64,000 bases of DNA from an uncultured Burkholderiaceae bacterium (lineage in GTDB: Bacteria > Pseudomonadota > Gammaproteobacteria > Burkholderiales > Burkholderiaceae_C), in contig CAZJBX010000009.1 of assembly GCA_964544605.1 (NCBI GenBank), positions 3 through 64,002 on the forward strand, written 5' to 3'. Shown here in pieces: positions 9,071-57,078 of the stretch. A program made the position numbers and the translations under genes. Each line of letters begins with the position of its first letter. Position 1 is the first letter of the stretch. A model generated the notes under the pieces. The model made no database searches and had not been told where the DNA came from. It saw only the letters and a program-made list of their open reading frames with translations.

Positions 9071-9077
9071 GGTGGTT

Positions 9078-16839: not shown

Positions 16840-16994
16840 TGGGGTTCTCCGAGAGCAAATGAGGTGGCAGTGGGGCGGCATTTGCGCCCCGCACCTTGTT
16901 CAGAAACGCTGGCGGCAGACCGCACGATGACGCAGCATCAGCGCCGCTTTGCGCCAAAAGGCCAAGACTAGCAGTTTTTCCCCATCCTCGCCGT

Positions 16995-19147: not shown

Positions 19148-19913
19148 GCTGGAAGATTGGGACGAGAGCCTGCCGGGGGTCAGTATTTCAGAGGGCGACG
19201 GCCTGCGCTATTTGCACCTGGGCGACACGCCGTGGATACAAGGGGCCATGCGCCTGCGAAAACCCCAGCATGTGGAGCTGCAATATGTGCAGCGCATGTT
19301 GGCTTGGCTGCTGTGGCATGAGGCCGTGGATGCCCCCACTGTGGCGGCCCTGCGCACGGTGCAACTGGGCTTGGGCGCGGCCAGCCTCACCAAGTTCTGC
19401 GGCAAAACCTTGGGCAGCAACAATTTGGCCATTGAAATCAACGCCCAAGTGGTGGCCGCCTGCCGCACTTGGTTTGCCTTGGGGCCAGACGAGCCGCGCA
19501 ACCAAGTTTGGCTTTGCGATGCGCAAGACTGGCTGCAAGCGCCGCAGGGCAAAAACCAAGCCGATGCCCTGATGGTGGACTTGTACGACCACGAAGCCGC
19601 CGCGCCCGTGCTGGATGGCCCCAGCTTTTACCGCCTCTGCCACGAGGCCCTGACCGAGCACGGCATCCTCAGCGTCAATCTTTTTGGCCGCGACCACAGC
19701 TTTGATGCCAGCCTCAAGCGCATCGCCGCCGTCTTTGGGCCCAATCGGGTCTGGCACTTCAAACCCACGGTGGAAGGCAATGCCATTGTGCTGGCCAGCA
19801 AAAGCCTGCCGCTGCCGCCGCAAGAGCTGCTGGAGCGCCGCTGCGTCGATTTGCAAAACCTGTTTGGCTTCAACACCAAATCGTGGTTGAAGGCGATCAA
19901 GCCCGCGCTTTAA
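19140..19913 (+). CDS. Spermidine-synthase-like class I methyltransferase-fold protein
   Basis: ATG overlaps the mutT stop (ATGCCTGA). Motifs VQLGLGAASLTKF and ADALMVDLYD..P resemble the polyamine aminopropyltransferase fold. Confidence 0.6.
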   Translation: MPELEDWDESLPGVSISEGDGLRYLHLGDTPWIQGAMRLRKPQHVELQYVQRMLAWLLWHEAVDAPTVAALRTVQLGLGAASLTKFCGKTLGSNNLAIEINAQVVAACRTWFALGPDEPRNQVWLCDAQDWLQAPQGKNQADALMVDLYDHEAAAPVLDGPSFYRLCHEALTEHGILSVNLFGRDHSFDASLKRIAAVFGPNRVWHFKPTVEGNAIVLASKSLPLPPQELLERRCVDLQNLFGFNTKSWLKAIKPAL

Positions 19914-27544: not shown

Positions 27545-27660
27545 AGGGGGCAAATTGTGGCAGAAGCCCGTACCCGCGCCGCCTCAGCGGGTTTTGTTGT
27601 TTCGCTTGGTTTATGCTTGGCTTATACAGAGCGCCGCACAAAAAACAGGAAGGAAGAAAA

Positions 27661-28149
27661 ATGACGCAAGAACGCTTTAAACCTGGCATCACCGTGGGTG
27701 CCATCATCGAACAAAACGGTAAATTCCTACTGGTTGAAGAATGCACCAGCCAAGGCTTGGTGCTCAACAACCCCGCTGGCCACCTGGAGCCTGCCGAAGA
27801 CCTAGTGGCGGGCTGCGCCCGTGAAGTGCTGGAAGAAACTGGCTACGACTTTGTGCCCGAGCAAGTGCTGGGCATCTACCTCAACCACTACCCCAGCCAT
27901 GATGCCGCCACCCAAGGCGATGTGCGCCTGCGCCCGCACTACCTGCGCTTTGCTTTTGTCGGGCGCTTGGGTCAGCACCACCCCGAACGCGGGCTGGATA
28001 AAGGCATTGTGCGTACCGTGTGGATGACGGCCGACGAAATCCGCCGCGCGCCCAATCTGCGCAGCCCCACCGTGCTGCAATGCCTGCAAGACTACGAAGC
28101 GGGCCAGCGCTTTGGGCTGGACATGCTGCGCATGGTGAATACGGATTGA
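27661..28149 (+). CDS. Nudix hydrolase, NudJ-like
   Basis: Nudix box GHLEPAEDLVAGCAREVLEETG. Overall collinearity with my recollection of E. coli NudJ (..NLRSP..Y..GQR). Confidence 0.75.
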   Translation: MTQERFKPGITVGAIIEQNGKFLLVEECTSQGLVLNNPAGHLEPAEDLVAGCAREVLEETGYDFVPEQVLGIYLNHYPSHDAATQGDVRLRPHYLRFAFVGRLGQHHPERGLDKGIVRTVWMTADEIRRAPNLRSPTVLQCLQDYEAGQRFGLDMLRMVNTD

Positions 28150-28224
28150 GGGGTTGGGGTGGTGTGGATGAGTCACTGAAGACATGGTGCATCGTGTTTC
28201 CACATCTTGCTGTTTTCTCTTGTC

Positions 28225-28307
28225 ATTGCGGGCTTGACCCGCAATCTTAGGTGTTTGAGCGTCGCAAAAACCAAGATGCTGAATCAAGTTCAGCATGACG
28301 CAGTGGG
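28225..28307. repeat. Hairpin pair H2 (ATTGCGGG-CTTGA-CCCGCAAT, 28225-28245) and H1 (ATGCTGAA-TCAAG-TTCAGCAT, 28276-28296). 28266-28307 is the left 42-bp direct repeat.
   Basis: Direct reading. 28266-28307 matches 28884-28925 with 3 mismatches. Confidence 0.85.
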
Positions 28308-28405: not shown

Positions 28406-28864
28406 ATGAACAAGTTTGAAGACAAGTTGGCTGCCAAAGCCATTGAGCGTTTGCCAGAAATCGCCAAGGTGGTGGCCAAGGACAAAACCCTGATGTACAT
28501 CCACTGGGCTGAGTTGGGCAGGCGAGATGACAGAGAGATGGGCGAGCTGATTCGGCTCAAGCTCAGCTATGAGCTGGCCGTCAATACCCTGATTATGAAG
28601 ACAACGAATTCGATGGGAGAGCGCTATTTGAAGGCTGACGGCTTGGCTGTGGTGGTGCAGCGCGTGCTGGCTCGGCCCGATGTGACAGAGGCCATTGCAG
28701 AAGGGGTGTGGCAGGTGTCGCGCATTTGGGGTGGCGAGGACATCAAGAAAAAGATTTTGGCGACCCCAGGGTACAAAGAAGAAGTTTTGCCCAAATTGCA
28801 GGGTTTTCAGCAAGAGTTGCAGGACTTTGCCGCTGAGCTGGATGCGAAGCCGGCCAAATCGTAA
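28406..28864 (+). CDS. Orphan hypothetical protein (152 aa, predicted all-alpha, no motif recognised)
   Basis: ATG 28406 preceded by AAGGAA. A sampled line (28441) is 50% G+C, versus about 60% in native genes. Bracketed by 42-bp direct repeats. The track ORF start at 28295 would read through hairpin H1. Confidence 0.6.
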   Translation: MNKFEDKLAAKAIERLPEIAKVVAKDKTLMYIHWAELGRRDDREMGELIRLKLSYELAVNTLIMKTTNSMGERYLKADGLAVVVQRVLARPDVTEAIAEGVWQVSRIWGGEDIKKKILATPGYKEEVLPKLQGFQQELQDFAAELDAKPAKS

Positions 28865-28883: not shown

Positions 28884-28925
28884 GAAAACCCAGATGCTGA
28901 ATCAAGTTCAGCATGACGAAGTGGG
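28884..28925. repeat. Right 42-bp direct repeat containing hairpin H1 (28894-28914)
   Basis: GAAAACCCAGATGCTGAATCAAGTTCAGCATGACGAAGTGGG versus AAAAACCAAGATGCTGAATCAAGTTCAGCATGACGCAGTGGG at 28266-28307. Confidence 0.85.
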
Positions 28926-29012: not shown

Positions 29013-30599
29013 TTATTCCCACTCAATCGTGGCAGGCGGTTTGCTGGAGATGTCGTAGGTGACGCGGCTGACGCCATCGACTTGGGTGATGATGCGGGTG
29101 GAGACGGCTTCGAGCAAATCGTAGGGCAGGTGTGCCCAGCGGGCCGTCATGAAGTCGGTGGTTTCCACCGCACGCAGGGCAATGACGAAGTCGTACACGC
29201 GTTTGCCGCCACTCACGCCCACCGATTTAACGGGCACAAACACCGCAAAGGCTTGGCTGGTGCTGTCGTACCAGCTTTTGCCATTGGCGGGGTTGCTGGT
29301 GTTGCGCAGGGCTTGAATAAAGAGGTCATCGGCCTGGCGCAGGATGTCGGCATAGGTTTTTTTCACTTCGCCCACAATGCGAACGCCCAAGCCCGGGCCG
29401 GGGAAGGGGTGGCGATAGACCATATCAGCAGGCAGGCCCAGGGCCACACCCAGCTCGCGCACCTCGTCTTTAAAGAGGTCTTTCAGGGGTTCGAGCAGTT
29501 TCAGGCCGAGCTGCTCAGGCAGGCCGCCGACATTGTGGTGGCTTTTGATGGTGGCGGTTTTTTTGCCGCCTGATTCGATGATGTCGGGGTAGATGGTGCC
29601 TTGGGCCAGCCAGCTTACGCCTTGGCTGCCGGGGCGGGCGGCTTTGAGTTTTTCGGCCTCGGCTTTGAAGACATCGACAAAGAGGCGGCCAATGATTTTG
29701 CGTTTTTGCTCAGGTTCGCTCACGCCAGCGAGTTCACCCAAAAAGAGGTTTTCCGCATCCACGCGCACAACTTTGGCTTGCAGTTTGTCGGCAAACATTT
29801 GCATGACCATGTCGCCTTCATTCAGGCGCATGAGGCCGTGATCGACAAAGACGCAGGTGAGTTGGTCGCCAATGGCGCGGTGGATGAGGGCGGCGCAGAC
29901 GGTGGAATCGACGCCACCAGACAGGCCGAGGATGACCTCTTCATCGCCCACTTGGGCTTTGATGTGGGCCACGGCTTCTTCAATATGGCGTTGCATTTGC
30001 CAGTCGGTTTGGGCGGCGCAAATCTCGCGTGCAAAGCGGGCCAAGAGGGCCGCGCCAGCGGGACTGTGGGCGCTTTCTTCAGGGTGAAATTGCAGGCCGT
30101 AGAAGTGGCGGCTGGTATCGCCCATGGCAGCCACGGCGCAGCCCTCGGCGCTGGCCAGGGTGCTAAAGCCCGCAGGCAGTTGCGCCACTTGCTCGCCCGT
30201 GGCCAGCCAAGCGGCGCTTTGCTGGGCCAAGTCTTGCAGCAGGCCAGTGGGGTTTGGCACTTGAATGTGGGCATCGACAAAACCGCTGGGGCCTTGTTGC
30301 GCCAATTGGCCGCCCAATTGCAGGGCCATGGTGTGCATACCGTAGCCGATGCCGAGCACGGGCAGGCCCAGCTCAAACACGGCTTGCGGGGCGCGGTCGC
30401 CTGCTTCGGCGGTGTCGGTGTAGCCGCCAGCCAGGATGATGCCTTTGAGCGGGCGCTCTTGCGCGTATTGGCGCAGCCAGTCCTCCGTCACATCGCTGGG
30501 ATAAACCTCGCAATACACCTGCGCTTCACGCACGCGGCGGGCGATGAGCTGGGTGAGTTGAGAGCCGAAATCAAGGATGAGGAGGGTGTCGTGTTGCAT
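29013..30599 (-). CDS. guaA: GMP synthase (glutamine-hydrolysing)
   Basis: GATase domain LILDFGSQ..; PP-loop GLSGGVDS; C-terminal ..[14 protein letters not shown] at 30599. The 5-prime extension to 30974 overlaps trpB2. Confidence 0.95.
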
Positions 30600-30679
30600 G
30601 GTGCTGGCCTTGTGGCGTAAAGAACAGGATTTTAAACGGAGGCACTTTTGTGCGGTGCAATAAATGCAGTGCTGGGGCC

Positions 30680-30708
30680 AAAAAAAGACCCCGCCGATGG
30701 GCGAGGTC
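30680..30708 (-). terminator. Rho-independent terminator downstream of the trpB2-like gene
   Basis: Minus-strand RNA GACCUCGCC-cauc-GGCGGGGUC followed by UUUUUUU. Confidence 0.75.
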
Positions 30709-30732
30709 GCTCGCTTTGTGCGTTGGCCCAAC

Positions 30733-32091
30733 TCAGCCGACTTGGGGCAGGTTTTGCAAGGCCGCTTCAATTTGCGCTTGCGGGTAGTCGTAGTCTTGCA
30801 GCTCGCCAGCGAAGTATTTGTCGTAGCTGAGCATGTCAAAGTGGCCGTGGCCTGAGAGGGTGAAGAAGATGACCTTGGGCTCGCCGCTTTCTTTGGCGGC
30901 AAGGGCCTCATCAATGGCGCCGCGCACGGCGTGGCAGGATTCGGGCGCGGGGATGATGCCTTCGGCACGGGCAAAGGTTACGCCCGCCTCAAAGGTGGCC
31001 AGTTGTGAGACCGCGCGCGCTTCAATGATGCCTTCATGCACAAGCTGGGAGACTTGCGTGGATGCGCCGTGGTAGCGCAGGCCGCCAGCGTGGATGCCTG
31101 GGGGCACAAAGTCGTGGCCCAAGGTGTATTGCTTCATCAGCGGGGTCAGGCCCACGGCATCGCCAAAGTCGTAGGCGTAGTGGCCACGGGTGAGGCTGGG
31201 GCAGGAGGCGGGCTCGATGGCCAGCAGGCGCACTTGTTTGCCAGCGGCTTTGTCGGCGACAAAGGGGAAGGCAGTGCCCGCAAAGTTGGAGCCGCCGCCA
31301 CAGCAGCCGATGACGACATCGGGGTAAACGCCTGCCATTTCAAGTTGCTTTTTCGCCTCTTGGCCAATGATGGTTTGGTGCGTGCACACATGGTTGAGCA
31401 CGGAGCCGAGGGCGTAGCTGGTGTCTTTGCGGCTGGCCGCTTCTTCCACCGCCTCAGAGATGGCGATGCCCAAGCTGCCGGGGGAGTTGGGGTCTTGGGC
31501 GAGGATTTTGCGGCCGCTTTCAGTGTGGGGGCTGGGTGAGGCGATGACTTCTGCGCCCCAAGTTTGCATCATGCTGCGGCGGAAGGGTTTTTGCTCGTAA
31601 CTGACTTTGACCATGTACACGCGTACATCCAGGCCGAACATTTGCCCTGCCAAGGCCAAAGAGGAACCCCATTGGCCCGCGCCGGTTTCAGTGGACAGGC
31701 GCTTGATGCCCGCGAGTTTGTTGTAGTAAGCCTGCGGGATGGAGCTATTGACTTTGTGTGAGCCAGCAGGGGAAACACCTTCGTATTTGTAGAAGATTTT
31801 GGCGGGTGTGCCCAAGGCGGCCTCTAGGCGGTGGGCGCGGAACATGGGCGTGGGGCGGTAGGTGCGGAAGGCGTCGCGCACGGCCTCAGGGATTTCAATC
31901 CAGCGCTGGGTCGAGACTTCTTGCTCGATGAGGCTGTCGGGGAAGATGGCGCTCAAGGCATCGGGCGTGAGGGGCTGGCCGTCTGGGCCGAGTACGGGCG
32001 CGGGCGGGCTGGGCAAATCAGCGGCGATGTTGTACCAGTGCGTGGGGATGTCGTTTTCACCCAAGAGGAATTTGGTTTGTTGGCTGTCCAT
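30733..32091 (-). CDS. TrpB-like PLP-dependent enzyme (tryptophan synthase beta, TrpB2 type)
   Basis: 452 aa, longer than TrpB1. GSHKVNS PLP-lysine motif, GGGSNFAG glycine loop, typical TrpB2 N-terminal extension. Confidence 0.85.
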
Positions 32092-41699: not shown

Positions 41700-41737
41700 C
41701 TCTATCATGCGGCCTGTGCTTTTTTTATTTGCCCGCC

Positions 41738-43033
41738 ATGAAGCCTGCCCCGACTGAAGCCGCCCAAGCCTTTGCCCACCGCCGCCGCCAAGCCCAGCTT
41801 TTGCTGCTGCTGGCCATGCTGCTGTTTGTGGCCAGCTTGCTGTGGGCCAAATACTGGCCAGCGCAGGCGTTTTATGCGGGCGCGCTCAAAGCCTTTGCGG
41901 AGGCGGCGATGGTCGGCGGCTTGGCCGATTGGTTTGCCGTCAGCGCCCTGTTTCGGCGCATTCCCATCCCCTTCCTCAGCGGCCACACCGATGTGCTGCG
42001 CCGCAACCAAAGCCGCGTGGCGCACAACCTGGCCTTGTTTGTGCGGCAGCATTTTTTCAGCCCTGAGGCCATCAGCCAACTGCTGCGCCAGCACGATTTG
42101 CCCCTGCTCTTGGCGCGTTGGCTGCGGCAAAAACGCAACCGCCAAAACTTGGCCGCGCATTTGCAAACGGCGCTGCAAGGGGCGCTGCACAGCTGGGATG
42201 ACGCACCCATTCGCCGCCTCATTCAAAACGGCCTGCAAGATGCCCTGCGCCAAGCCGAGCTGCGCCCTGCCATTGCCCGCAGCTTGGCCTTGTTCACGCA
42301 TGAGGGCCGCCATCAAGAATTGCTCGATGCCCTCATCACCCGCTTGGCCGCTTACTTGGCCAAAGAGGAAACGCATGGCCGCTTTGCCCACCTGCTGGCC
42401 GATTATTTGCGCGAGGAATACCCCGTGTGGGAGAAGATGCTGCCGACGCAAGCCATCAGCGGCAAGGGGGCCAATATCGTGCAAGACATCATGCAAAGCT
42501 TCTTCTACAAAATACAAAGCCAGCCCGATCACTTTGTGCGACAAGAGGTCAACGACTGGGTGGCGCAGTCTTTGCAGCGCATTGAGCACGACCGGGCTTG
42601 GGCCGAAAGAATCCACGCCATGCAAGCCTATGCCGCCGATAACCCCGAATTCCAGCGCTTTGCCGCCAGCATTTGGGAAGACATCCGCCACTGGCTGCTG
42701 CAAGACTTGGCCCAGCCCAACTCCCAACTGCACCGCCTGAGCCAAAGCCTGGGCCTGTGGCTGGCGCAAACCCTGCTGCGCGATGCCGATTTGCGCCGCA
42801 GCCTGCAAAACCGCCTGGAGGCTGCCGCACAAAGCATGGCCCCTGAGCTGGGGCAGTTTCTAGAAGGCCACATCGCCAGCACCTTGGCCGGCTGGGATAG
42901 CGCCCTCATGGTGCAAGAGATTGAAACCCAAGTGGGCAAAGACCTGCAAGGCATCCGCATCAACGGCACCCTATTGGGCGGCGCCATTGGCCTGCTGCTG
43001 TGGGGCTTGGCCCAGCTTGTAAACTTGCTCTAA
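41738..43033 (+). CDS. DUF445-family membrane protein (YjiN-like)
   Basis: AMVGGLADWFAVSALFRRIP and C-terminal DLQGIRINGTLLGGAIGLLL are the DUF445 signatures. ATG at 41738. The longer ORF from 41369 overlaps the GMC gene. Confidence 0.75.
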   Translation: MKPAPTEAAQAFAHRRRQAQLLLLLAMLLFVASLLWAKYWPAQAFYAGALKAFAEAAMVGGLADWFAVSALFRRIPIPFLSGHTDVLRRNQSRVAHNLALFVRQHFFSPEAISQLLRQHDLPLLLARWLRQKRNRQNLAAHLQTALQGALHSWDDAPIRRLIQNGLQDALRQAELRPAIARSLALFTHEGRHQELLDALITRLAAYLAKEETHGRFAHLLADYLREEYPVWEKMLPTQAISGKGANIVQDIMQSFFYKIQSQPDHFVRQEVNDWVAQSLQRIEHDRAWAERIHAMQAYAADNPEFQRFAASIWEDIRHWLLQDLAQPNSQLHRLSQSLGLWLAQTLLRDADLRRSLQNRLEAAAQSMAPELGQFLEGHIASTLAGWDSALMVQEIETQVGKDLQGIRINGTLLGGAIGLLLWGLAQLVNLL

Positions 43034-44087: not shown

Positions 44088-44174
44088 ATGCCATCGCCTG
44101 CCGCAAGCGACACCATTTGTCGCCTGTTTGCCTAGCATTGCCGTTGTCTCAATGCAATTAGAAAGGTGGCGCGT

Positions 44175-45143
44175 ATGGCGCAAGATCGTGTAGAAGTTTT
44201 ATTGGAGCGCGTGGCCGTGGCGCTGGAAGCCATTGCCACGCATTTGCAAGCGGCTGCGCCTGCTGGGGCCGTGGCCCAGCCCGTGGTGGCTGCCGCGCAA
44301 ACAGTGCTGCGACAGGTGGCGCAGGCAGAAGGGGCTGACAGCGCAGAAGCCGCTGCTGTCTCTTTGCCTGCCGTGCAAATGGGGCCAGGGCAGGTTTTGG
44401 GGCCGTTTTTGGCCCACCACGGCATCAGCATCAAGGTGCTGCCGCAGGCCGAGGAGGCCGACCGCGTGATTGACAGCTTGGCCCTGTATTTGGGCGACAA
44501 CTACGCCGCATTGGCCACGCTGTTGGGCAAAATGAAGCGCACCATGCAAAAGGGCGAGGGCTTTACCGAAAGTCTGAAAGACCGCCCCCAAAGCGATGTC
44601 ACCACGGTGTGTCAATTTGCCACCCGCTTGCATGAAATCGCATTTTTGGAGCAATATCAATACCAGCGCTCTCCTGCTTATTTGATTCGCGCCAAAACAT
44701 CGAGCCTGCCTATGGGGCAACGCTTTTTTGGCGGGCAATGGCTGGAGCGCTACATCTGGCAAAAGGTCAAGGCCGTGCACGCCCGCGCCTGTGAAGAATT
44801 TGGCCGTCCGCTGTCACTTGAGTGTTTGGTGAACCCGCAAATCGTGCTGCCCAATGGCGATGACTTTGAGCTGGACATCCTCGCCTCGATAGGCGGCAAC
44901 ATCTACTGGATTGAAGCCAAAACCGGCGACTACCAGCAGCATGTGAACAAATACGCCAAATTTGCCAAACAACTGGGGCTGGATCGCCAGCACTCTTGGA
45001 TGGTGCTCAGCGAAGCCAGCCCCGATCGCTGCGACACCCTGTCTGCCTTGTTTGGTATGCAGGTGAGCCATTTGCAGGGCTTTGAAGCCCGCCTATGGGC
45101 GCAATTGCAAGCTGACGAAGCGGCGGGTTTGCTCAATTTGTAA
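44175..45143 (+). CDS. Hypothetical protein with C-terminal Card1/DUF1887-like PD-(D/E)xK nuclease domain
   Basis: C-terminus FFGGQWLERYIWQKV ... NGDDFELDILASIGGNIYWIEAKTGDY gives E...D-x13-ExK, in the order I recall for the Card1/Can2 nuclease domain. Ala-rich N-terminal ~70 aa. SD AAAGGTGG upstream of ATG 44175 (GTG at 44166 possible). Confidence 0.6.
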   Translation: MAQDRVEVLLERVAVALEAIATHLQAAAPAGAVAQPVVAAAQTVLRQVAQAEGADSAEAAAVSLPAVQMGPGQVLGPFLAHHGISIKVLPQAEEADRVIDSLALYLGDNYAALATLLGKMKRTMQKGEGFTESLKDRPQSDVTTVCQFATRLHEIAFLEQYQYQRSPAYLIRAKTSSLPMGQRFFGGQWLERYIWQKVKAVHARACEEFGRPLSLECLVNPQIVLPNGDDFELDILASIGGNIYWIEAKTGDYQQHVNKYAKFAKQLGLDRQHSWMVLSEASPDRCDTLSALFGMQVSHLQGFEARLWAQLQADEAAGLLNL

Positions 45144-51452: not shown

Positions 51453-53609
51453 ATGACCGAGCTACACAATTCACAGCAAGAACTCAGCCGCTTTCAACGC
51501 CGTGTGTGGGTGGCGGCGGGGCTGATGCTGCTGCTCTTTTCCTTGGTCTTTGTGCGTTTGGTGCTGCTGCAAGTGGTGCGGCACGAGGGCTTTGCCCAGC
51601 AAGCCGAGCGCAACCGCACGGCAGTGGTGCCCATCGTGCCGCATCGGGGCTGGATTTTGGACCGCAACGGCGTGGTGCTGGCCAGCAACTACTCGGCCTA
51701 CACCCTTGAAGTCACGCCCTCTGAGCTGGCGGGTAAAGACTTGGAAGTTTTGATTGAGGAGCTGTCTGAGCTGGTTCACATCAGCCCCCGTGACATCAAC
51801 CGCTTTAAAAAACTGCGGGCCGAATCCAAGCGCTTTGAGCCGATTCCGCTGCGTATGCGCCTGAGCGATGAGGAAGTCATGCGCTTTACTGCGCAGCGTT
51901 ACCGTTTCCCTGGGGTTGAAGTGCAGGCACGCCTGTTCCGCAGCTATCCCTTGGCAGAAACGGCCAGCCATGTCATTGGCTACATTGGCCGCATCAATCA
52001 GCAAGAAAAAGACGCCATTGCCGAGATGGAGGCCGAAAAGCGCGCCAACTACCGGGGCACCGACCACATCGGCAAAACGGGCATTGAGCAAAGCTATGAG
52101 GAATTGCTGCACGGCACCACAGGCGCTGAACAAGTGGAAACTTCGGCCGGCGGTCACGCCCTGCGTTTGCTCGGCTCTGTGCCGCCCAAGGCGGGTGAAA
52201 CCATCGTTCTCAGCATCGACATCAAACTGCAAAAACTGGTGGAAGACATGTTTGGCGACCGCCGTGGCGCACTGGTGGCGATTGAGCCGAACACAGGCGA
52301 GGTGTTGGCCTTTGTCAGTAAACCCACTTACGACCCCAATTTGTTTGTGGACGGCATCGATGTGGAAAACTGGCGTGCCCTCAATGAATCCCTCAACCGC
52401 CCCCTCATCAACCGTGCCCTGCGCGGCGTTTATCCGCCTGGCTCCACCTACAAGCCCTTTATGGCCTTGGCCGCTGTGCAACTGGGCTACCGCACACCCA
52501 GCACAGTGGTGAATGACCCTGGCTACTGGATGCTGGGCAAGCACCGCTTCCGTGGGCATGGCGTGGGCCGTGTCGATATGCGCCGCAGCATCGTCAAATC
52601 CAGCAATGTGTATTACTACTCCTTGGCCCATCAAATGGGAGTGGAGGCCATGCACGACTTCATGGCCCCCTTGGGCTTTGGGCAAAAAACGGGCATCGAT
52701 TTGCAGGGCGAATCCACCGGCGTGTTGCCCAATCAGGCTTGGAAGCGCAAGCGCTTTGGCAGCGATAAAAACCCCCGCCGTGGCGACTGGGTGGCGGGTG
52801 AAACCATCTCGCTGGGCATCGGCCAAGGCTATAACAACTTCACCATCTTGCAGTTGGCCCATGCCACGGGCACCTTGGTCAATGGCGGCATCAGCCGCAC
52901 ACCCTATTTGGCCCAAGGCACGCAAGACATGGCCACGGGCGAGCGCCGCCCATTTGCCCGTACGCCTGCCAAAACAATGGGCTATCGGGCCGATTACCTT
53001 GAGGCCATCAAAGAGGCCATGGTCGGCGTGACGACCGAGGGCACGGGGCGGCGCGCCTTCTCAGGGGCCAAATACCGCAGCGGCGGCAAAACGGGCACGG
53101 CCCAAGCCGTGACGGTGGGGCAAAAAGAGCGCTACAACGCCGCCAAACTGGCCGAGCACCAGCGCGACCACGCCCTCTACATCGCCTTTGCGCCCGCTGA
53201 GCACCCCACCATTGCGCTGGCCGTCATTGTGGAAAACGCAGGCTTTGGCGGCGACCAAGCCGCGCCCATTGCCCGCCGCGCTATGGACTACTGGGTGCTG
53301 GGCCACTACCCCAGCGAGCAGGACATGCAGCTCATCCGCTACGGCAAAGCTGGCCCGCCTGTGGGCCAGCCGCGCATTGCCGCAGAAGTGCCCTTGGTGC
53401 CACACCAAAAAACCTTGGTGCTGACCGAAGAAGGCCGCTTGGCCGAAAGCGAAATCACCCCCGCACCGCCTGAAATTGAAGCCCTGCCCGATGCCAGGCT
53501 TGAGCGCGAAGACGACGAAGCCGCAGCCGCTGGAGCACCGCCCGCCGCCTCACCCACGGCGGCTGCTGCGAGTGCAGCGGCCCCAGCCCGCGCCCATGCC
53601 GCACCCTGA
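51453..53609 (+). CDS. mrdA: Penicillin-binding protein 2 (elongasome transpeptidase) with a ~90-aa Ala/Pro-rich C-terminal tail
   Basis: SxxK STYKP, SxN SSN, KTG KTGTA. N-terminal TM anchor. Follows mreBCD. Confidence 0.93.
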   Translation: MTELHNSQQELSRFQRRVWVAAGLMLLLFSLVFVRLVLLQVVRHEGFAQQAERNRTAVVPIVPHRGWILDRNGVVLASNYSAYTLEVTPSELAGKDLEVLIEELSELVHISPRDINRFKKLRAESKRFEPIPLRMRLSDEEVMRFTAQRYRFPGVEVQARLFRSYPLAETASHVIGYIGRINQQEKDAIAEMEAEKRANYRGTDHIGKTGIEQSYEELLHGTTGAEQVETSAGGHALRLLGSVPPKAGETIVLSIDIKLQKLVEDMFGDRRGALVAIEPNTGEVLAFVSKPTYDPNLFVDGIDVENWRALNESLNRPLINRALRGVYPPGSTYKPFMALAAVQLGYRTPSTVVNDPGYWMLGKHRFRGHGVGRVDMRRSIVKSSNVYYYSLAHQMGVEAMHDFMAPLGFGQKTGIDLQGESTGVLPNQAWKRKRFGSDKNPRRGDWVAGETISLGIGQGYNNFTILQLAHATGTLVNGGISRTPYLAQGTQDMATGERRPFARTPAKTMGYRADYLEAIKEAMVGVTTEGTGRRAFSGAKYRSGGKTGTAQAVTVGQKERYNAAKLAEHQRDHALYIAFAPAEHPTIALAVIVENAGFGGDQAAPIARRAMDYWVLGHYPSEQDMQLIRYGKAGPPVGQPRIAAEVPLVPHQKTLVLTEEGRLAESEITPAPPEIEALPDARLEREDDEAAAAGAPPAASPTAAAASAAAPARAHAAP

Positions 53610-54666
53610 TTGCATTATCGTAGGCGCTGGCTTGGCAGGCGCTTGCGCCGCCCGAACCCTCGCCTTGGCAGGGCAGCAAATCTTGCTTTTAGATGCCGCC
53701 GCTGGCCCTGCCCAGGGCGGTGCATCGGCCCTGCCCGTCGGCCTCATGGCCCCCATCAAAGGCGGCAAAAGCCACGCCGCTGAAGCGGGCCAAGCCGACT
53801 GGGACGCGCAAGGCATGGCCACCACCCACGCATGGCTGCGCGAGCTCACAGCCCAAGGCCGCCTGCAACAAGGCCAAGACTGGCAACCCTGCGGCAGCGC
53901 CGAACGCGCGCCTGATAATGCGGGCGGCTGGCTCTGGCAGGCCGATGCCGCCTGGGTCAAACCCCAGCGCCTGGCCACCGCTTGCGCCCAAGAAGCGGGC
54001 GTGCATAGCCGCTACAACACGGCGGTGCAAAGCCTGCACCATGCAAACGGCCTGTGGCAAGTGCAACTGGCCAGTGGCGAGTATTTGCAAGCGCCCTGCA
54101 TCTTGCTGGCTGCTGCATGGCCCAGCCAAACCCTGCTGCAAAACCTCAAGGCCGCCGCCCTGCCCCAGCCCACAGCCCTCTTGCAGCGCCTGCAACATAA
54201 AAAAATACTCAACCCCACGGCCGGCCAAGCCATCTACGCGCCCTGGCAGCCTGAATGGGCCGAACACCTGCCTTTGCACAAGCAACACAGCCCCCACGCC
54301 TGCAACGGCCACGGCCACTTCGTGCCTGCCGTGCCTATGGGCATGGGCCAAACTGAATACTGGCTCAGTGGCGCCACCTATGTCCACCAAGCCAGCGCCA
54401 ACGCCGCCAACAGCGCCGAAGGCGAAGCCGCCAACCTACAGCGCCTGAGCGAACTGCTGCCCCAGCTTGCCCCCCATGTGCAAGCGCAACAGCAAGTGGG
54501 TTTATTGCAACGCTTCAACGGCCTGCGCTGCACCACACCCAGCCGCCGCCCCATCGTCGGCGAACTGGCCCACGGCCTCTGGCTGGCCGCAGGTTTTGGC
54601 TCACGCGGCCTCAGCCACGCACCCCTGGCGGCGGAGCACCTGGCGCAGCGCATTGTGGGGCGATGA
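53596..54666 (+). CDS. FAD-dependent oxidoreductase (DAO family; resembles the MnmC oxidase domain)
   Basis: ATG 53596 overlaps the mrdA end. Dinucleotide motif CIIVGAGLAGACAA..LLLD. C-terminal GFGSRGL. Confidence 0.65.
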   Translation: MPHPDCIIVGAGLAGACAARTLALAGQQILLLDAAAGPAQGGASALPVGLMAPIKGGKSHAAEAGQADWDAQGMATTHAWLRELTAQGRLQQGQDWQPCGSAERAPDNAGGWLWQADAAWVKPQRLATACAQEAGVHSRYNTAVQSLHHANGLWQVQLASGEYLQAPCILLAAAWPSQTLLQNLKAAALPQPTALLQRLQHKKILNPTAGQAIYAPWQPEWAEHLPLHKQHSPHACNGHGHFVPAVPMGMGQTEYWLSGATYVHQASANAANSAEGEAANLQRLSELLPQLAPHVQAQQQVGLLQRFNGLRCTTPSRRPIVGELAHGLWLAAGFGSRGLSHAPLAAEHLAQRIVGR

Positions 54667-54705
54667 TGAAGCGGTGGGGGCAGGGGGTGCCGCAATAAAA
54701 GATTC

Positions 54706-54790
54706 GTCACTGCGGGCTTGACCATGACGAAACAGCCGCGTCACTGCGGGCTTGACCATGACGAAACAGCCGCGTCACTGCGGGCTTGAC
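54706..54790. repeat. 34-bp tandem repeat, 2.5 copies (GTCACTGCGGGCTTGACCATGACGAAACAGCCGC)
   Basis: Units start at 54706, 54740 and 54774. Only the third unit continues into the intact H2 hairpin (54777-54797). Confidence 0.85.
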
Positions 54791-54920
54791 CCGCAGTCTC
54801 TGTTGCTGATTGCGCTGCCGAAGGGTTGAGATCGCGACTCGGAGGCTGCCATGACGAAGCAGGGCGAAAATGCTTTAAGCCCCACGCCTTTTGCGCATGG
54901 CCTCGGCCAGTTGCGGCAGC
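54758..54920. repeat. Left copy of the ~164-bp direct repeat flanking the DpnI-like cassette; includes H2 hairpin and a decayed copy of the aroG 3-prime end
   Basis: Hand alignment with 55884-56047 gives ~88% identity. Minus-strand reading of 54876-54920 gives LPQLAEAMRKRRGA*, versus the genuine aroG end LAQLAEAVRQRRGV*. Confidence 0.85.
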
Positions 54921-55057
54921 TTAAAGGGCAATAAATTGGGCCAAAAAAGCGGGCCGTGCATAAAAGGCGCGGCTGGTGCTGCCGTGCCCCGCGCCTTTGG
55001 CCAAAATGCTAGACTGATTCATGCTCATCGCTTCAACGATCCAAACTGTCTGTCTCT

Positions 55058-55825
55058 ATGCAACTGAGTTTTCGCCCCCATCTTGCTGCGGCTTATAAAA
55101 GCCCCGCACAAATTGCCCGTGTGTTGACTGAAGAATGGTTAAGTCGGGAGGTTTATTGTCCCAATTGTGGGGAGCACCCTTTAAAAGCATTTCCAAACAA
55201 CACCCCTGTTGCTGATTTCTTTTGTGCCAACTGTGATGAGGAGTTTGAGCTGAAAAGTAAAAAAGGAAATTTAGGACATCACATCAACGATGGCTCCTAC
55301 AAGGTCATGCTAGAGCGCATTCAGGCAGAAAACAATCCTCATTTTTTCTTCTTAAATTACGGCGCAGATTGGCAAGTCCAGCAGTTGCTATTGATACCAA
55401 AACATTTTTTTACACCAAGCGTTATTGTCGCGCGAAAACCTCTGACCGACACAGCCAAAAGAGCAGGCTGGATAGGTTGCAAAATTGACTTGACCAAACT
55501 GCCTTCTGCTGGCCATATCTTTGTGGTGCGGGAGGGTAAAGCCTGTCCTCCTGAACAAGTCCGAGAGAATTACCGAAAGACCCTATTTTTAGGTCAACAG
55601 AAAGTCAAAAACAGAGGCTGGACCTTGAGTGTGATGCACTGTATTGAGCGTCTGAATAAAGAGGTTTTTAGTTTGCAAGAACTCGATTTCTTTGTTCCTG
55701 AGTTGCAAGCGCAATACCCCAAAAATAAATTCATACGAGAAAAAATCCGTCAGCAACTTCAAATTCTCAGGGATCAAGGTTGGTTAGAGTTTCAGTCGCG
55801 CGGGGTTTATCGGAGGATATTTTGA
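55058..55825 (+). CDS. DpnI / Dam-replacing-protein family methyl-directed (type IIM) restriction endonuclease
   Basis: 255 aa. CPNCG..CANC Cys4, PVADFFCANCDEEFELKSKKG (D..ExK), NNPHFFFL, RKPL..AKRAGWIGCKIDL, C-terminal winged-helix-like REKIRQQLQILRDQGWLEF..RGVYRR. Collinear with my recollection of S. pneumoniae DpnI. About 38-40% G+C in sampled lines. Confidence 0.85.
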   Translation: MQLSFRPHLAAAYKSPAQIARVLTEEWLSREVYCPNCGEHPLKAFPNNTPVADFFCANCDEEFELKSKKGNLGHHINDGSYKVMLERIQAENNPHFFFLNYGADWQVQQLLLIPKHFFTPSVIVARKPLTDTAKRAGWIGCKIDLTKLPSAGHIFVVREGKACPPEQVRENYRKTLFLGQQKVKNRGWTLSVMHCIERLNKEVFSLQELDFFVPELQAQYPKNKFIREKIRQQLQILRDQGWLEFQSRGVYRRIF

Positions 55826-55883
55826 TTTCTTCATCTGACGAAGGCGTTTAAGTTGAAAGCCGAAATGTCAGTTCAAGTCCGGC

Positions 55884-56047
55884 ATGACGAAATAGCCGCG
55901 TCACTGCGGGCTTGACCCGCAGTCTCTGTTGCGGATTGCGCTGCCGAAGGGTTGTGATGGCGGCTCGGTGGCCGCTATGAGGAAGCAGGGGCGAAAGCGC
56001 CTTAAACCCCACGCCTTTGCCGCACGGCCTCGGCCAGTTGCGCCAGC
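55884..56047. repeat. Right copy of the ~164-bp direct repeat; overlaps the genuine aroG 3-prime end
   Basis: See 54758-54920. H2 hairpin at 55903-55923. Confidence 0.85.
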
Positions 56048-57078
56048 ACGGGCTGGGTTTGCTCAAAGCTGATGCAGGCGTCGGTGACGCTGATGCCGTA
56101 GGCGGGTTTTTCGCCGTTTTTCACATCTTGGCGGCCTTCGTGGATGTGGCTTTCAATCATGACGCCAGTGATGCGGGCGTCGCCAGCGGCGATTTGCGCG
56201 GCGACATCGGCGGCGACTTCAATTTGCTTGGCGTGTTGTTTGCTGCTGTTGGCGTGCGAGAGGTCGATCATGACTTGCGGGCGTTGCTGGGCCGCTTGCA
56301 GTTGTTCGCAGGCCGCTTGCACATGTTCGGCGCTGTAGTTGGGCGCTTTGCCGCCGCGCAAGATGAGGTGGCAGTCGGCGTTGCCGTGTGTTTCAAAAAT
56401 GGCGGCCAGGCCCATTTTTGTCATGCCCATGAAGGCGTGGGGGCTGGCTGCGGCTTGCAGGGCATCCACGGCGACTTTGACGCCGCCATCGGTGCCGTTT
56501 TTAAAACCGACGGGGCAAGACAGGCCGCTGGCGAGTTGGCGGTGGCTTTGGCTTTCTGTGGTGCGCGCGCCAATAGCACCCCAGCTGACCAAGTCGCTGA
56601 TGTATTGTGGGCTGAGCAGGTCTAAAAATTCTGTGCCCACGGGCAGGCCGAGGTCGAGCACATCCAGCAGCAGGCGGCGCGCGAGCCCCAAGCCTTTGTT
56701 CATGGCGAAGCTGCCGTCCATATCGGGGTCGTTGATATAGCCCTTCCAGCCCACGGTGGTGCGGGGTTTTTCAAAGTAAACACGCATGACGATGAGCAGG
56801 TCTTGGGCGTGTTTTTCGGCTTCCATTTTCAGCAGGCGGGCGTAGGCCATGGCTTGCTCGTGGTCGTGGATGGAGCAAGGCCCGACGATGACGAGCAGGC
56901 GCTCATCTTGGCCGTGGAGGATGGCGGAGATGGCGGCGCGGCTGGATTCAACCAAGTCAAGCGCGGCTTGCGGCGCAGGCATCCATTCTTCCAACACGGC
57001 AGGGGTGACGAGGGGGCGCACGCATTTGATGCGCAGGTCCTCAACGCGGGTTTGGTCTTGGGTGCAGGGGGTGTTCAT
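56002..57078 (-). CDS. aroG: Class I 3-deoxy-7-phosphoheptulonate (DAHP) synthase
   Basis: LLVIVGPCSIHD, KPRTTVGWKGYINDP, IDLSHANS motifs. The isozyme (F/G/H) cannot be assigned from sequence alone. ATG at 57078. Confidence 0.92.
   Translation of the reverse strand: MNTPCTQDQTRVEDLRIKCVRPLVTPAVLEEWMPAPQAALDLVESSRAAISAILHGQDERLLVIVGPCSIHDHEQAMAYARLLKMEAEKHAQDLLIVMRVYFEKPRTTVGWKGYINDPDMDGSFAMNKGLGLARRLLLDVLDLGLPVGTEFLDLLSPQYISDLVSWGAIGARTTESQSHRQLASGLSCPVGFKNGTDGGVKVAVDALQAAASPHAFMGMTKMGLAAIFETHGNADCHLILRGGKAPNYSAEHVQAACEQLQAAQQRPQVMIDLSHANSSKQHAKQIEVAADVAAQIAAGDARITGVMIESHIHEGRQDVKNGEKPAYGISVTDACISFEQTQPVLAQLAEAVRQRRGV

What the first reader, a model, noticed from the sequence alone, without database searches (positions are those of the whole stretch)
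54758..56047. Low-GC DpnI-family methyl-directed restriction endonuclease cassette inserted at the aroG 3-prime end, bracketed by ~164-bp direct repeats
Seen in sequence: ORF 55058-55825 carries CPNCG..CANC (Cys4), PVADFFCANCDEEFELKSKKG (D..ExK of a PD-(D/E)xK site), NNPHFFFL, RKPL..AKRAGWIGCKIDL, and a winged-helix-like tail REKIRQQLQILRDQGWLEF..RGVYRR. This is the motif order I recall for DpnI and the neisserial Dam-replacing proteins, which cut only G(m6A)TC DNA. Hand counts of 60-nt lines give 40% (55321) and 38% (55681) G+C inside the ORF, versus 60% (54001) and 52% (56101) in the flanks. 54758-54920 and 55884-56047 are imperfect direct repeats (~88% identity). The right copy ends in the genuine aroG terminus (LAQLAEAVRQRRGV*), and the left copy keeps an in-frame decayed copy (LPQLAEAMRKRRGA*). 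The ~960-bp unique segment 54921-55883 therefore looks like an insertion that duplicated its target. No methyltransferase, controller protein, integrase or transposase accompanies it. Inference: this is a horizontally acquired solitary type IIM defence gene. The host must keep GATC unmethylated. The cassette may move by repeat-mediated recombination, as described for the pneumococcal DpnI/DpnII and neisserial drp loci.
Basis: partly seen in the sequence, partly recalled or inferred. Interest (0 to 1): 0.7.

Follow-up and report, generated by a model that had tools for sequence, protein, structure and literature searches.

The report
Solitary DpnI-type restriction gene insert
A betaproteobacterium carries a foreign-looking gene for a well-known type of enzyme that cuts only methylated GATC DNA, lodged between two housekeeping genes and flanked by a duplicated 164-base stretch; the gene is an ordinary new member of a large family and only the flanking duplication is unusual.

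Summary
ORF 55058-55825 (+) is a full-length DpnI-family type IIM restriction endonuclease. It matches Pfam DpnI and DpnI_C, PADLOC mREase_II, and PDB 4esj (DpnI) end to end at E = 6e-91. All 17 catalytic, zinc-binding, Gm6ATC-readout and winged-helix residues named in the DpnI structure papers are conserved.

The gene has 44% G+C in a 61-66% context. It lies in a 1.3-kb stretch between convergent aroG and an FAD-oxidoreductase gene. The only syntenic relative has a 41-bp spacer there. None of four relatives at 82-83% AroG identity has DpnI beside aroG.

The direct repeats are real (54757-54920 and 55883-56047, 147/165 identical). That element is widespread in metagenomes and occurs elsewhere in the window. 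The last 46 nt of aroG follow the element in each copy. The distal copy is decaying. How the duplication arose is unresolved. GATC methylation status cannot be tested here.

This is a new member of a family with more than 7000 relatives. Interest is low to moderate.

The parts
53596..54666 (+). Left flanking gene: FAD-dependent oxidoreductase (DAO family, weak resemblance to the MnmC C-terminal domain). It converges on aroG.
   Evidence: Pfam PF01266 at 5e-34. NCBIfam MnmC-type models match below their cut-offs. The exact protein is on Logan contigs L002 and L003, which both stop at window 54734.
54705..54772 (+). Two identical tandem 34-nt units. Each is the first half of the hairpin element's left arm (CGTCACTGCGGGCTTGAC) joined to CATGACGAAACAGCCG. 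The second unit overlaps the start of the left repeat.
   Evidence: the repeat finder family D3, 100% identical. The first 31-mer that occurs twice starts at 54705, which explains why the Logan unitigs end at 54734. Similar partial arm duplications occur in metagenome copies of the element.
54757..54920 (+). Left (distal, decaying) copy of the 164-nt direct repeat.
   Evidence: It is 89% identical to the right copy.
54773..54858 (+). REPIN-like hairpin doublet inside the left repeat. The left arm is intact and the right arm is degraded.
   Evidence: Exact core motif at 54774. Alignment A1. Its fold is no better than shuffles, z = -0.81.
54875..54920 (-). Pseudo-copy of the last 46 nt of aroG, including a stop codon. 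It reads LPQLAEAMRKRRGA*.
   Evidence: Translation. The AV to AM change hits a valine that is invariant in 40 relatives.
54921..55057 (+). Unique 137-nt segment upstream of the DpnI-family gene (G+C 0.53). No consensus promoter was recognised and no obvious Shine-Dalgarno sequence is present.
   Evidence: Composition. Promoter scan found nothing. Sequence read directly.
55058..55825 (+). DpnI-family type IIM (Gm6ATC-dependent) restriction endonuclease gene, 255 aa. It has an N-terminal PD-(D/E)XK domain with a Cys4 zinc site and a C-terminal winged helix.
   Evidence: PF06044 at 2e-73 and PF17726 at 3.4e-28. PDB 4esj at 6e-91 over residues 1-254. PADLOC mREase_II at 4.7e-107. 17 of 17 key residues conserved.
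55826..55882 (+). Unique 57-nt segment downstream of the gene (G+C 0.44). Its end, TTCAAGTCCGG, together with the following CATGACG, looks like the remnant of a right arm of the hairpin element (about 55866-55889).
   Evidence: Sequence, compared with right arms of the GCCGGATCAAGTCCGGCATGAC type. This is my reading and was not tested statistically. The fold is not significant.
55883..56047 (+). Right (proximal, functional) copy of the direct repeat, 165 nt.
55899..55984 (+). REPIN-like hairpin doublet inside the right repeat. Both arms still fold. It lies in the aroG 3' untranslated region.
   Evidence: Exact core motif at 55900. Fold z = -2.97, and 0 of 200 shuffles fold as well.
56002..57078 (-). 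Right flanking gene aroG (DAHP synthase), 358 aa. Its last 46 nt (56002-56047) lie inside the right repeat.
   Evidence: PF00793 at 2e-96. NCBIfam TIGR00034 and NF009395 match above their cut-offs. Translation.

Best explanation
ORF 55058-55825 encodes a solitary DpnI-family type IIM restriction endonuclease.

By homology it binds fully methylated Gm6ATC with two domains. One is the PD-(D/E)XK catalytic domain (E25, D53, E64, K66, with a Cys4 zinc site and the L129/R135/W138 methyl pocket). The other is the C-terminal winged helix. It cuts that DNA, so it destroys incoming phage or plasmid DNA that carries Dam-type methylation. The host's own GATC sites must be unmethylated and are therefore spared, which is why no partner methyltransferase is needed.

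The gene is foreign to this Comamonadaceae-type genome. It sits in a lineage-specific 1.3-kb stretch between the convergent aroG and FAD-oxidoreductase genes.

That stretch is bounded by 164/165-nt direct repeats. Each repeat consists of a 16-nt leader, a REPIN-like two-hairpin element, a short spacer and the last 46 nt of aroG.

My preferred account of the repeats is one homologous crossover. Incoming DNA, circular or joined at its other end illegitimately, already carried a copy of the 'hairpin element + aroG end' next to the DpnI gene. It recombined with the resident copy. A single crossover of this kind automatically leaves the shared segment on both sides of the insert. The aroG-proximal copy stayed functional and the distal copy has since decayed.

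Shown: family membership, residue conservation, composition, the repeats, absence of the gene at this site in relatives, and decay of the distal copy.

Inferred: enzymatic specificity, the defence role, unmethylated host GATC, and the recombination route.
For: Identity:
- Pfam DpnI at 2e-73 and DpnI_C at 3.4e-28, both far above their gathering scores.
- PDB DpnI 4esj at 6e-91, ungapped over 254 residues, 50.8% identical.
- PADLOC mREase_II at 4.7e-107.
- All 17 residues named in PMC3424567 and PMC4117772 are conserved.

Foreign origin:
- GC 0.44 and GC3 0.43, against 0.61-0.66 and 0.73-0.75 in the neighbours.
- The nearest non-self homologue is only 55% identical, and the top hits are spread over Flavobacteria, Neisseria, Streptococcus and others.
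- Of 80 related aroG loci, only L004 keeps the tatC-aroG-oxidoreductase-mrdA order. It has a 41-bp spacer and no DpnI.
- L005, L208 and L209 also lack DpnI beside aroG.

Solitary status is normal for the family. Homologues P0002 and P0023 are single genes among housekeeping genes, without a methyltransferase, and are also lower in G+C than their flanks.

Repeats.

Decay of the distal copy: a valine invariant in relatives is lost and a hairpin is lost.

Independent support for the layout:
- Logan unitig L001, seen in 3 samples, equals window 54777-55923 exactly. It physically links the DpnI gene to the pseudo-aroG fragment.
- L002 and L003 end at 54734, as expected from the tandem units.

Maintenance: if the two copies began identical, an unconstrained ORF would remain intact in about 1% of simulations.

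Neisserial precedent: drg is also a low-G+C (40.5-42.4%) GmeATC-specific insert (abstracts and text of PMC4269198 and PMC516771).
Against: - No enzymatic or methylome data exist.
- No consensus sigma-70 promoter or terminator was found, and no obvious ribosome-binding site precedes the ATG. Expression is therefore unproven.
- The empty-site comparison comes from a distant relative: AroG 83%, MrdA 72%, oxidoreductase 51% identical. That relative has no copy of the repeat sequence.
- Downstream synteny of aroG varies within the clade. The ancestral state of this exact junction is therefore not established.
- No closer relative exists in the databases searched.
- The single-crossover route is one of several that give the same end product.
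- The 11% divergence between copies may reflect donor-recipient divergence rather than age. That would weaken the purifying-selection argument.
- GATC is depleted about 3.6-fold in the window. It is similarly depleted in relatives without this gene. The depletion therefore says nothing specific about this gene.
Confidence: 0.8

Rival explanations
1. The insertion event itself created the duplication. A staggered break or replicative repair at the aroG 3' end copied about 164 nt of target on both sides of the incoming 962-bp segment.
For: Direct repeats in the same orientation abut the unique segment exactly. The repeat includes non-element sequence, the aroG 3' end. This rules out two independent insertions of the hairpin element.
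Against: To my knowledge, transposase-type target duplications are 2-14 bp, and none approaches 164 nt. No transposase or integrase is in the cassette or among the neighbours. The cassette has no terminal inverted repeats. No single-copy precursor site was found.
Confidence: 0.25
2. The arrangement is an assembly artefact. The low-G+C DpnI segment belongs to another molecule or organism and was threaded into the contig through the shared repeat. Alternatively, it exists mainly as a 1126-bp circle beside an empty chromosomal site.
For: The hairpin element is shared by many taxa. In the k=31 Logan graph the DpnI unitig L001 starts and ends inside the same 39-nt stretch shared by both copies. The graph is therefore a loop, and by itself it is compatible with a circle plus an empty site.
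Against: L001 contains, next to the DpnI gene, the diverged pseudo-copy of this organism's own aroG end (54875-54920). The gene is therefore physically linked to host-derived sequence. The longest identical stretch between the copies is only 39 nt, so any assembler k above about 41, or ordinary reads, resolves the path. The 74-kb NCBI contig asserts the integrated form. The same unitig occurs in 3 samples.
Confidence: 0.05
3. The gene is a silent or decaying remnant, or it has been co-opted for a role other than defence. It is not an active restriction enzyme.
For: No recognisable promoter, terminator or ribosome-binding site was found. The title and abstract of PMC4269198 report that the neisserial homologue Drg affects viability and biofilm formation.
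Against: The reading frame is intact and all 17 catalytic and recognition residues are conserved. That outcome is expected in about 0.2% of neutral simulations at the divergence seen in the flanking repeats. The promoter scan covers sigma-70 consensus sites only.
Confidence: 0.12
4. The gene is an old resident of this junction that was lost in the sampled relatives. It is not a lineage-specific gain.
For: The 11% divergence of the repeats suggests the structure is not recent. Synteny downstream of aroG varies in the clade. DpnI homologues are generally lower in G+C than their hosts, so low G+C need not mean recent arrival.
Against: GC3 of 0.43 against 0.73-0.75 shows very little amelioration. 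Four of four relatives lack it. The syntenic relative has only 41 bp at the junction, with no remnant.
Confidence: 0.1

Closest known systems
R.DpnI of Streptococcus pneumoniae (PDB 4esj, 4kyw), the type IIM Gm6ATC-dependent restriction endonuclease
   Same: Same length and two-domain architecture. The two align without gaps over 254 residues at 50.8% identity. The catalytic E25/D53/E64/K66, the Cys4 zinc site, the N48/R126/R135 readout, the L129/R135/W138/G140 methyl pocket and the K229/R231 winged-helix residues are identical. There is no partner methyltransferase.
   Different: The host is a high-G+C betaproteobacterium rather than a Firmicute. The gene stands alone, whereas from my own knowledge the pneumococcal cassette also carries dpnD; I did not verify that here. 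No alternative DpnII-type cassette was seen at the locus. The flanks are a 164-nt duplication rather than conserved homology arms shared with an alternative cassette.
Neisserial dam-replacing gene product Drg / NmeBII (Pfam 'Dam-replacing family')
   Same: Same Pfam family. It is a solitary chromosomal gene and is much lower in G+C than its host (40.5-42.4% against 51-57%; PMC4269198 and PMC516771). It is interpreted as horizontally acquired. N. gonorrhoeae copies are 43.8% identical to this protein.
   Different: Drg sits in the leuS/dam locus in place of dam. Here the site is the aroG/oxidoreductase junction, and the related empty site is a 41-bp spacer with nothing replaced.
REPINs and BIMEs (pairs of inverted REP hairpins; Bertels and Rainey, PMC3116915 and PMC3337134)
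   Same: The element inside each repeat has two hairpin-forming arms in inverted orientation separated by a short variable spacer. It is intergenic and dispersed. The doublet is the dominant form: 59 of 66 convergent neighbouring arm pairs lie within 150 nt.
   Different: The arm head is GTCAT, not the GTAG-type head I recall for RAYT-associated REPs. The two arms often have different stem sequences. No RAYT gene was seen. Copy number in this window is low, at 3-4 loci. The same 25-nt arm occurs in contigs from 32% to 71% G+C, which is not typical of species-specific REPIN populations.
Integrative elements that target the 3' end of a gene and carry a replacement copy of that end (attL/attR direct repeats)
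   Same: Direct repeats flank the insert and include the 3' end of the target gene. The proximal copy keeps the gene intact and the distal copy is a displaced fragment.
   Different: There is no integrase. The insert is about 1 kb with a single cargo gene. The repeats are 89% identical, not near-identical.

Membership tests
DpnI / Dam-replacing family (type IIM Gm6ATC-dependent restriction endonucleases) | N-terminal catalytic domain matches PF06044 above its gathering score | tested here: met
   246.4 bits against a cut-off of 26.7, covering residues 1-179 of the protein and positions 1-181 of 183 in the profile.
DpnI / Dam-replacing family (type IIM Gm6ATC-dependent restriction endonucleases) | C-terminal winged-helix domain matches PF17726 | tested here: met
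   98.1 bits against a cut-off of 23, residues 185-252.
DpnI / Dam-replacing family (type IIM Gm6ATC-dependent restriction endonucleases) | PD-(D/E)XK catalytic residues E25, D53, E64 and K66 (PMC3424567) | tested here: met
   All four are identical at the same positions in the ungapped alignment.
DpnI / Dam-replacing family (type IIM Gm6ATC-dependent restriction endonucleases) | Zinc site formed by four cysteines in two CXXC motifs, placed between E25 and D53 and between D53 and E64 | tested here: met
   C34, C37, C56 and C59 are present.
DpnI / Dam-replacing family (type IIM Gm6ATC-dependent restriction endonucleases) | Gm6ATC readout and methyl-binding cleft: N48, D78, R126, L129, R135, W138 and G140 (PMC4117772) | tested here: met
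   All seven are identical.
DpnI / Dam-replacing family (type IIM Gm6ATC-dependent restriction endonucleases) | Winged-helix DNA-binding residues K229 and R231 | tested here: met
   Both are identical.
DpnI / Dam-replacing family (type IIM Gm6ATC-dependent restriction endonucleases) | Cleavage of Gm6ATC DNA only when it is methylated | not testable with these tools
   This needs an in vitro digest of Dam+ against dam- DNA.
DpnI / Dam-replacing family (type IIM Gm6ATC-dependent restriction endonucleases) | No cognate methyltransferase, and host GATC sites unmethylated | tested here: inconclusive
   No methyltransferase is among the neighbours. The only [DNS]PP[YFW] motif in any frame of at least 150 aa is in DprA. 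But 64 kb is a small part of a genome, and methylation state cannot be read from sequence.
Pneumococcal DpnI/DpnII exchangeable cassette locus | Alternative DpnI-type and DpnII-type cassettes occupy the same locus in different strains, between shared homologous flanks | tested here: inconclusive
   No relative closer than 83% AroG identity exists in the searched collections. Four relatives have neither cassette at aroG. The second strain seen in Logan data has the same junction.
Neisserial drg locus | The gene occupies the dam locus (leuS/dam) in place of dam | tested here: not met
   Here the neighbours are aroG and an FAD oxidoreductase. The related empty site is a 41-bp spacer.
Transposon or IS insertion with target-site duplication | Short target duplication, terminal inverted repeats and a transposase | tested here: not met
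   The repeats are 164 nt. There are no inverted repeats at the cassette ends. There is no transposase in the cassette or the neighbours.
Integrase-mediated island at a gene's 3' end | att direct repeats that include the gene's 3' end, plus a tyrosine or serine recombinase gene | tested here: not met
   The repeat feature is present. The 962-bp unique segment holds only the DpnI-family ORF, so there is no recombinase.
REPIN / BIME (for the element inside the repeats) | [quoted passage not shown] | tested here: met
   Window copies are at 28221-28300, 54773-54858 and 55899-55984, with a solo arm at about 28890-28918.
REPIN / BIME (for the element inside the repeats) | An associated RAYT transposase and a population of many near-identical copies within the genome | tested here: inconclusive
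   Only 3-4 loci occur in 64 kb. No RAYT was looked for beyond the ORFs scanned. The rest of the genome is not available.

The most novel reading that the evidence does not exclude
The 1126-bp unit, made of the DpnI gene plus one copy of the repeat, may be a recombination-mobilised single-gene cassette. Under this reading the widespread GTCAT-type hairpin doublets act as portable homology or landing pads. Small accessory or defence genes would then be inserted into, excised from (as circles) and exchanged between genomes at these elements without a dedicated recombinase in the cassette. Three observations are consistent with this but do not demonstrate it. A second orphan gene (28406-28864) is bracketed by direct copies of the same element's right arm. 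The k=31 assembly graph around DpnI forms a loop. Partial arm duplications recur at element borders.
Probability: 0.08. Interest if true: 0.6.

Novelty: new member of a known kind. Interest (0 to 1): 0.3.

Why it matters
The gene adds one more divergent member (at most 55% identical to anything sampled) to a large, well-characterised family of methyl-directed restriction enzymes, in a poorly sampled Comamonadaceae-type lineage. It would be of practical interest only if its specificity or properties differed from DpnI, and the conserved recognition residues argue against that.

The context is worth more than the gene. It is a clean example of a one-gene defence insert without any mobility gene, bounded by a long duplication built around a REPIN-like element. 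It also lies in a clade with unusually strong avoidance of ACGT, GATC and CCGG, which suggests a long history of restriction pressure on 4-bp palindromes. Both points could be followed up cheaply with reads and a methylome.

Tried and rejected
- Rfam search of 54500-56200 with permissive thresholds gave only two chance-level hits. The repeat is not a described RNA family.
- The sigma-70 promoter and intrinsic terminator scan of 54600-56100 found nothing.
- Exact look-ups of the DpnI protein and the flanking oxidoreductase returned only short contigs that break at the repeats. The exact AroG look-up found nothing.
- The listing of cluster members gave no accession or organism name.
- A full-text search for the element's sequence strings, and for the spurious peptides I associated with it, returned only unrelated primer matches.
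- I considered that a GIY-YIG nuclease mobilises the hairpin element. Such ORFs abut arms in L140 and L163, but only 2 of 120 loci have one. I did not pursue it.
- I considered that the arms define gene cassettes. Same-orientation arm pairs 0.3-2.3 kb apart exist. But they also bracket housekeeping genes such as pgk, as expected for any intergenic repeat. This is kept only as a low-probability reading.
- P0123, an AroG hit with an anomalously high score, is a 465-aa protein with an internal duplication in an unrelated context.
- The plasmid and phage collections show no vehicle. The two 'plasmid' hits are 2.17-Mb N. gonorrhoeae records. The one phage hit covers only the winged-helix domain.
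- Direct repeats around two other DpnI homologues (L204, L206) are only short chance-level matches.
- I did not run structure prediction. A solved structure of a 51%-identical homologue aligns end to end, so a model would add nothing.
Full report
**Observation**

- ORF 55058-55825 (+) encodes 255 aa with the quoted motifs.
- G+C in 200-nt windows falls to 0.405-0.465 inside the ORF, against 0.60-0.69 on both sides.
- The ORF has GC 0.439 and GC3 0.43. aroG has 0.614 and 0.747. The upstream oxidoreductase has 0.663 and 0.734.
- The repeat finder and a global alignment give direct repeats at 54757-54920 and 55883-56047. They are 164 and 165 nt with one single-base indel and 147/165 = 89% identity.
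- The right copy holds the true end of aroG...LAQLAEAVRQRRGV*.
- The left copy reads LPQLAEAMRKRRGA* in frame on the minus strand.

**What the gene is**

The protein is a full-length member of the DpnI / Dam-replacing family.

- Pfam gives PF06044 at 2e-73 (residues 1-179) and PF17726 at 3.4e-28 (residues 185-252).
- PADLOC gives mREase_II, 'Type II methyl-directed restriction enzyme', at 4.7e-107 over the whole length.
- The sequence of solved R.DpnI (4esj, 4kyw) aligns without gaps over residues 1-254 at E = 6e-91, with 50.8% identity.

I took the defining residues from the two structure papers rather than from memory.

- PMC3424567 names the catalytic residues E25, D53, E64 and K66. It also describes a Zn2+ ion held by four cysteines in two CXXC motifs.
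- PMC4117772 names base readout by N48, D78, R126 and R135. It names the methyl cleft formed by L129, R135 and W138, with G140 required. It also names the winged-helix residues K229 and R231.

All 17 positions are identical in this protein. The enzyme therefore very probably has DpnI's specificity for fully methylated Gm6ATC. That is an inference from homology, not a measurement.

**Surroundings**

Upstream are mreB-mreC-mreD-mrdA and a DAO-family FAD oxidoreductase at 53596-54666. Downstream, on the other strand, are aroG at 56002-57078 and tatC.

Nothing in the 962-bp unique segment other than the DpnI-family ORF looks like a gene.

No methyltransferase, integrase or transposase domain was found in the neighbours or in ten less obvious ORFs of the window. 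The only [DNS]PP[YFW] motif in any frame of at least 150 aa lies in DprA.

The window begins with gyrB-dnaN-dnaA by my reading of the translations, so it is chromosomal and near the replication origin.

**Is it an insertion?**

The best matches are 82-83% identical: an uncultured Burkholderiaceae MAG and a Brachymonas MAG. The remaining matches are Comamonadaceae-type genera.

Of the 80 loci, only L004 keeps the tatC-aroG / oxidoreductase-mrdA order, and it has no DpnI. In L004 the two convergent stop codons are 41 bp apart, against 1335 bp in the window.

A protein search found no AroG between 83% and 100% identity among 5.8 billion sequences. Two further relatives at 82-83% (L208, L209) have other genes downstream of aroG and also no DpnI. 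Homology of all four relatives to the window stops about 20 nt before the aroG stop codon.

The gene and the repeat sequence are therefore specific to this lineage among everything sampled. Together with the composition, this supports horizontal acquisition.

There is a caveat. L004 is distant (MrdA 72%, oxidoreductase 51% identical), and synteny downstream of aroG varies in the clade.

No donor is identifiable. The family has more than 7000 members at E <= 1e-20, but the nearest non-self member is 55% identical, and the top hits span Flavobacteria, Streptococcus, Neisseria and several proteobacterial classes.

No vehicle is evident. The plasmid collection gave only two 2.17-Mb N. gonorrhoeae records. 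The phage collection gave only a partial winged-helix match.

Two homologues examined in context, P0002 and P0023, are likewise solitary genes among housekeeping genes. They are lower in G+C than their flanks and have no long flanking repeats. Solitary status and low G+C are thus habits of the family. The long duplication is peculiar to this locus.

**What the repeats are made of**

The 17-nt motif GTCACTGCGGGCTTGAC, within the hairpin core, occurs three times at the left border, once at the right border, and once, with one mismatch, at 28222.

Their G+C ranges from 0.32 to 0.71.

The same architecture recurs in those hits and in the window:
- a left arm, (C)GTCAT-stem-CTTGA-stem-ATC;
- a variable spacer;
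- a right arm, GAT-stem-loop-stem-ATGAC, whose stem sequence varies while keeping its pairing.

With a detector that accepts any stem, 59 of 66 convergent neighbouring arm pairs lie within 150 nt. The doublet is therefore the normal form.

This is the layout of REPINs and BIMEs (PMC3116915, PMC3337134). However, the head is GTCAT rather than a GTAG type, and I found no associated transposase. Rfam has nothing for it.

Each repeat copy at the DpnI locus consists of four parts:
- a 16-nt leader (CATGACGAAAYAGCCG);
- a full doublet (54773-54858 on the left, 55899-55984 on the right);
- a short spacer;
- the last 46 nt of aroG.

The aroG part shows that the repeat is a segmental duplication and not two independent insertions of the element.

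The two extra 34-nt units at 54705-54772 are half of a left arm fused to the leader. Similar partial arm duplications precede full arms in several metagenome copies.

**State of the two copies**

The copy next to aroG keeps both hairpins (fold z = -2.97; 0 of 200 shuffles fold as well). The distal copy has lost the right-arm hairpin (z = -0.81).

The distal pseudo-aroG fragment changes a valine that is invariant in 40 relatives, AV to AM.

I ran a rough simulation. Suppose the copies were identical when formed and the observed 17 substitutions and one indel are split evenly between them. An unconstrained 768-nt ORF then stays intact in about 1.1% of runs. It stays intact with all 17 key residues unchanged in about 0.2%.

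Either the gene has been kept by selection, or the copies were already diverged when the structure formed.

**How the structure arose**

No result here settles this.

I favour a single homologous crossover, either Campbell-type or homology-facilitated illegitimate recombination. The incoming DNA would have carried the DpnI gene next to a copy of the element plus aroG end. My reasons are:
- such a crossover yields exactly this end product without a recombinase;
- it tolerates pre-diverged copies;
- dispersed repeats are natural substrates for it.

But it has no known enzymology at 164 nt, and no transposase or terminal inverted repeats are present.

An integrase-type island at a gene's 3' end fits the repeat geometry but lacks the integrase.

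**Reliability of the assembly**

The exact DpnI protein is also on a 1147-bp Logan unitig seen in three samples. That unitig equals window 54777-55923 base for base.

Its ends are exactly where a k=31 graph must break, because the longest identical stretch between the copies is 39 nt (54768-54806 and 55894-55932).

The unitig contains the pseudo-aroG fragment beside the DpnI gene. The gene is therefore physically linked to host-derived sequence and is not a chimera with an unrelated low-G+C organism.

The k=31 graph is nevertheless a loop. By itself it cannot tell an integrated copy from a 1126-bp circle plus an empty site. Only the 74-kb contig asserts integration. Reads would settle this.

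Contigs L002 and L003 end at 54734, as the tandem 34-nt units predict. L003 is a second strain with four synonymous differences.

**Host GATC status**

This cannot be tested with 64 kb.

GATC is depleted about 3.6-fold (51 observed, 182 expected). CCGG is depleted about 4-fold. ACGT is almost absent (1 observed, 84 expected).

The same pattern holds in L004, L005, L208 and L209. It does not hold in about 75 other Comamonadaceae loci. It is therefore an old clade trait and not a consequence of this gene.

It does suggest a long history of restriction pressure on 4-bp palindromes, including GATC, in this clade. A methyl-directed GATC enzyme makes biological sense in that setting. The pneumococcal logic applies: DpnI cells survive phage grown on GATC-methylating hosts (PMC3812788). 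That link is speculation.

**Comparison with known systems**

The protein passes every sequence-level membership test for the DpnI family.

The locus is not a neisserial-type dam replacement. drg sits in the leuS/dam locus (PMC4269198), whereas this site is an aroG/oxidoreductase spacer.

It cannot be shown to be a pneumococcal-type exchangeable cassette, because no alternative cassette was seen and no close relatives are available.

Its low G+C relative to the host parallels drg, which has 40.5-42.4% against 51-57%.

**Verdict**

This is a new, fairly divergent member of a well-known family, in an ordinary solitary arrangement. The 164-nt duplication built around a REPIN-like element is a modest curiosity whose mechanism is open.

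Interest is 0.3.

The most novel reading not excluded is that these hairpin doublets serve as recombination landing pads for single-gene cassettes. A second bracketed orphan gene lies at 28406-28864. I give this reading about 8%, because such arms also bracket housekeeping genes elsewhere.

Noticed in passing
whole window (single ACGT at 11134); also L002, L004, L005, L208, L209: There is extreme avoidance of 4-bp palindromes. ACGT is 1 observed against 84 expected. CCGG is 78 against 322. GATC is 51 against 182. GTAC has a ratio of 0.49. The four nearest relatives (AroG 82-83% identical) share the pattern, but about 75 other Comamonadaceae loci do not. It is therefore a clade trait. No restriction-modification gene that would explain it was found in the window.
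   Followed up: partly
Its layout is a left arm GTCAT-stem-CTTGA-stem-ATC, a variable spacer, and a right arm GAT-stem-loop-stem-ATGAC. Right-arm stems differ between copies while keeping their pairing. Partial duplications of the left arm often precede the full arm. It is not in Rfam, and a full-text search for its sequence strings found nothing. The exact-match search inflates the apparent sequence conservation.
   Followed up: partly
window 28406-28864 (+), between a NUDIX gene (27613-28149) and guaA (29013-30974, -): A 152-aa orphan ORF has no Pfam or PADLOC match. It sits in a local dip in G+C (0.546). On the left is a full hairpin doublet. On the right is a solo right arm that is nearly identical to the doublet's right arm (GATGCTGAATCAAGTTCAGCATGACG). 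This is a second single gene flanked by direct copies of the same element.
   Followed up: partly
L140 6942-7283 (-); L163 356-712 (-): Small GIY-YIG-type nuclease ORFs (YxYxxxN...LYVGVT...REKQLKNWKR) lie 25-43 nt from hairpin arms. Only 2 of the 120 metagenome loci have such a gene, and none of the 80 Comamonadaceae control loci does.
   Followed up: partly
window 1-12000: By my reading of the translations, the window opens with gyrB (164-2647, -), dnaN (2758-3909, -) and dnaA (4142-5665, -). These are followed by def, a 521-aa ORF I read as a LysM-type protein, dprA (confirmed by Pfam), rsmG and mnmG. This origin-proximal stretch has 50-57% G+C against about 60-65% for the rest. Composition therefore varies within the genome even among housekeeping genes.
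   Followed up: partly
L204 5001-5780 and L206 5001-5777: The two DpnI homologues examined in context both lie immediately beside a glpX (FBPase) gene, although the other neighbours differ. In L204 the gene is also adjacent to a 455-aa protein with a faint AIPR (abortive-infection) Pfam hit.
   Followed up: no
L003 (SRR21159530) against window 54558-54625: A second strain of the same organism is present. It has four synonymous differences within 70 nt at the end of the oxidoreductase gene. The DpnI unitig from the same run is identical to the window.
   Followed up: no
L207 38-1435 (protein P0123): A 465-aa AroG homologue on a 2.9-kb ENA contig has an internal duplication of about 100 residues. 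It is probably an assembly or gene-call artefact. It produced a misleadingly high score in the AroG search.
   Followed up: yes
window 16896-17894 (+): An ORF matches DUF815 (an AAA-type ATPase of unknown function) at E = 1.9e-104. Three other sizeable GC3-supported ORFs (18939-19913, 41705-42832, 44166-45143) have no Pfam match, and some may be mis-called frames.
   Followed up: no
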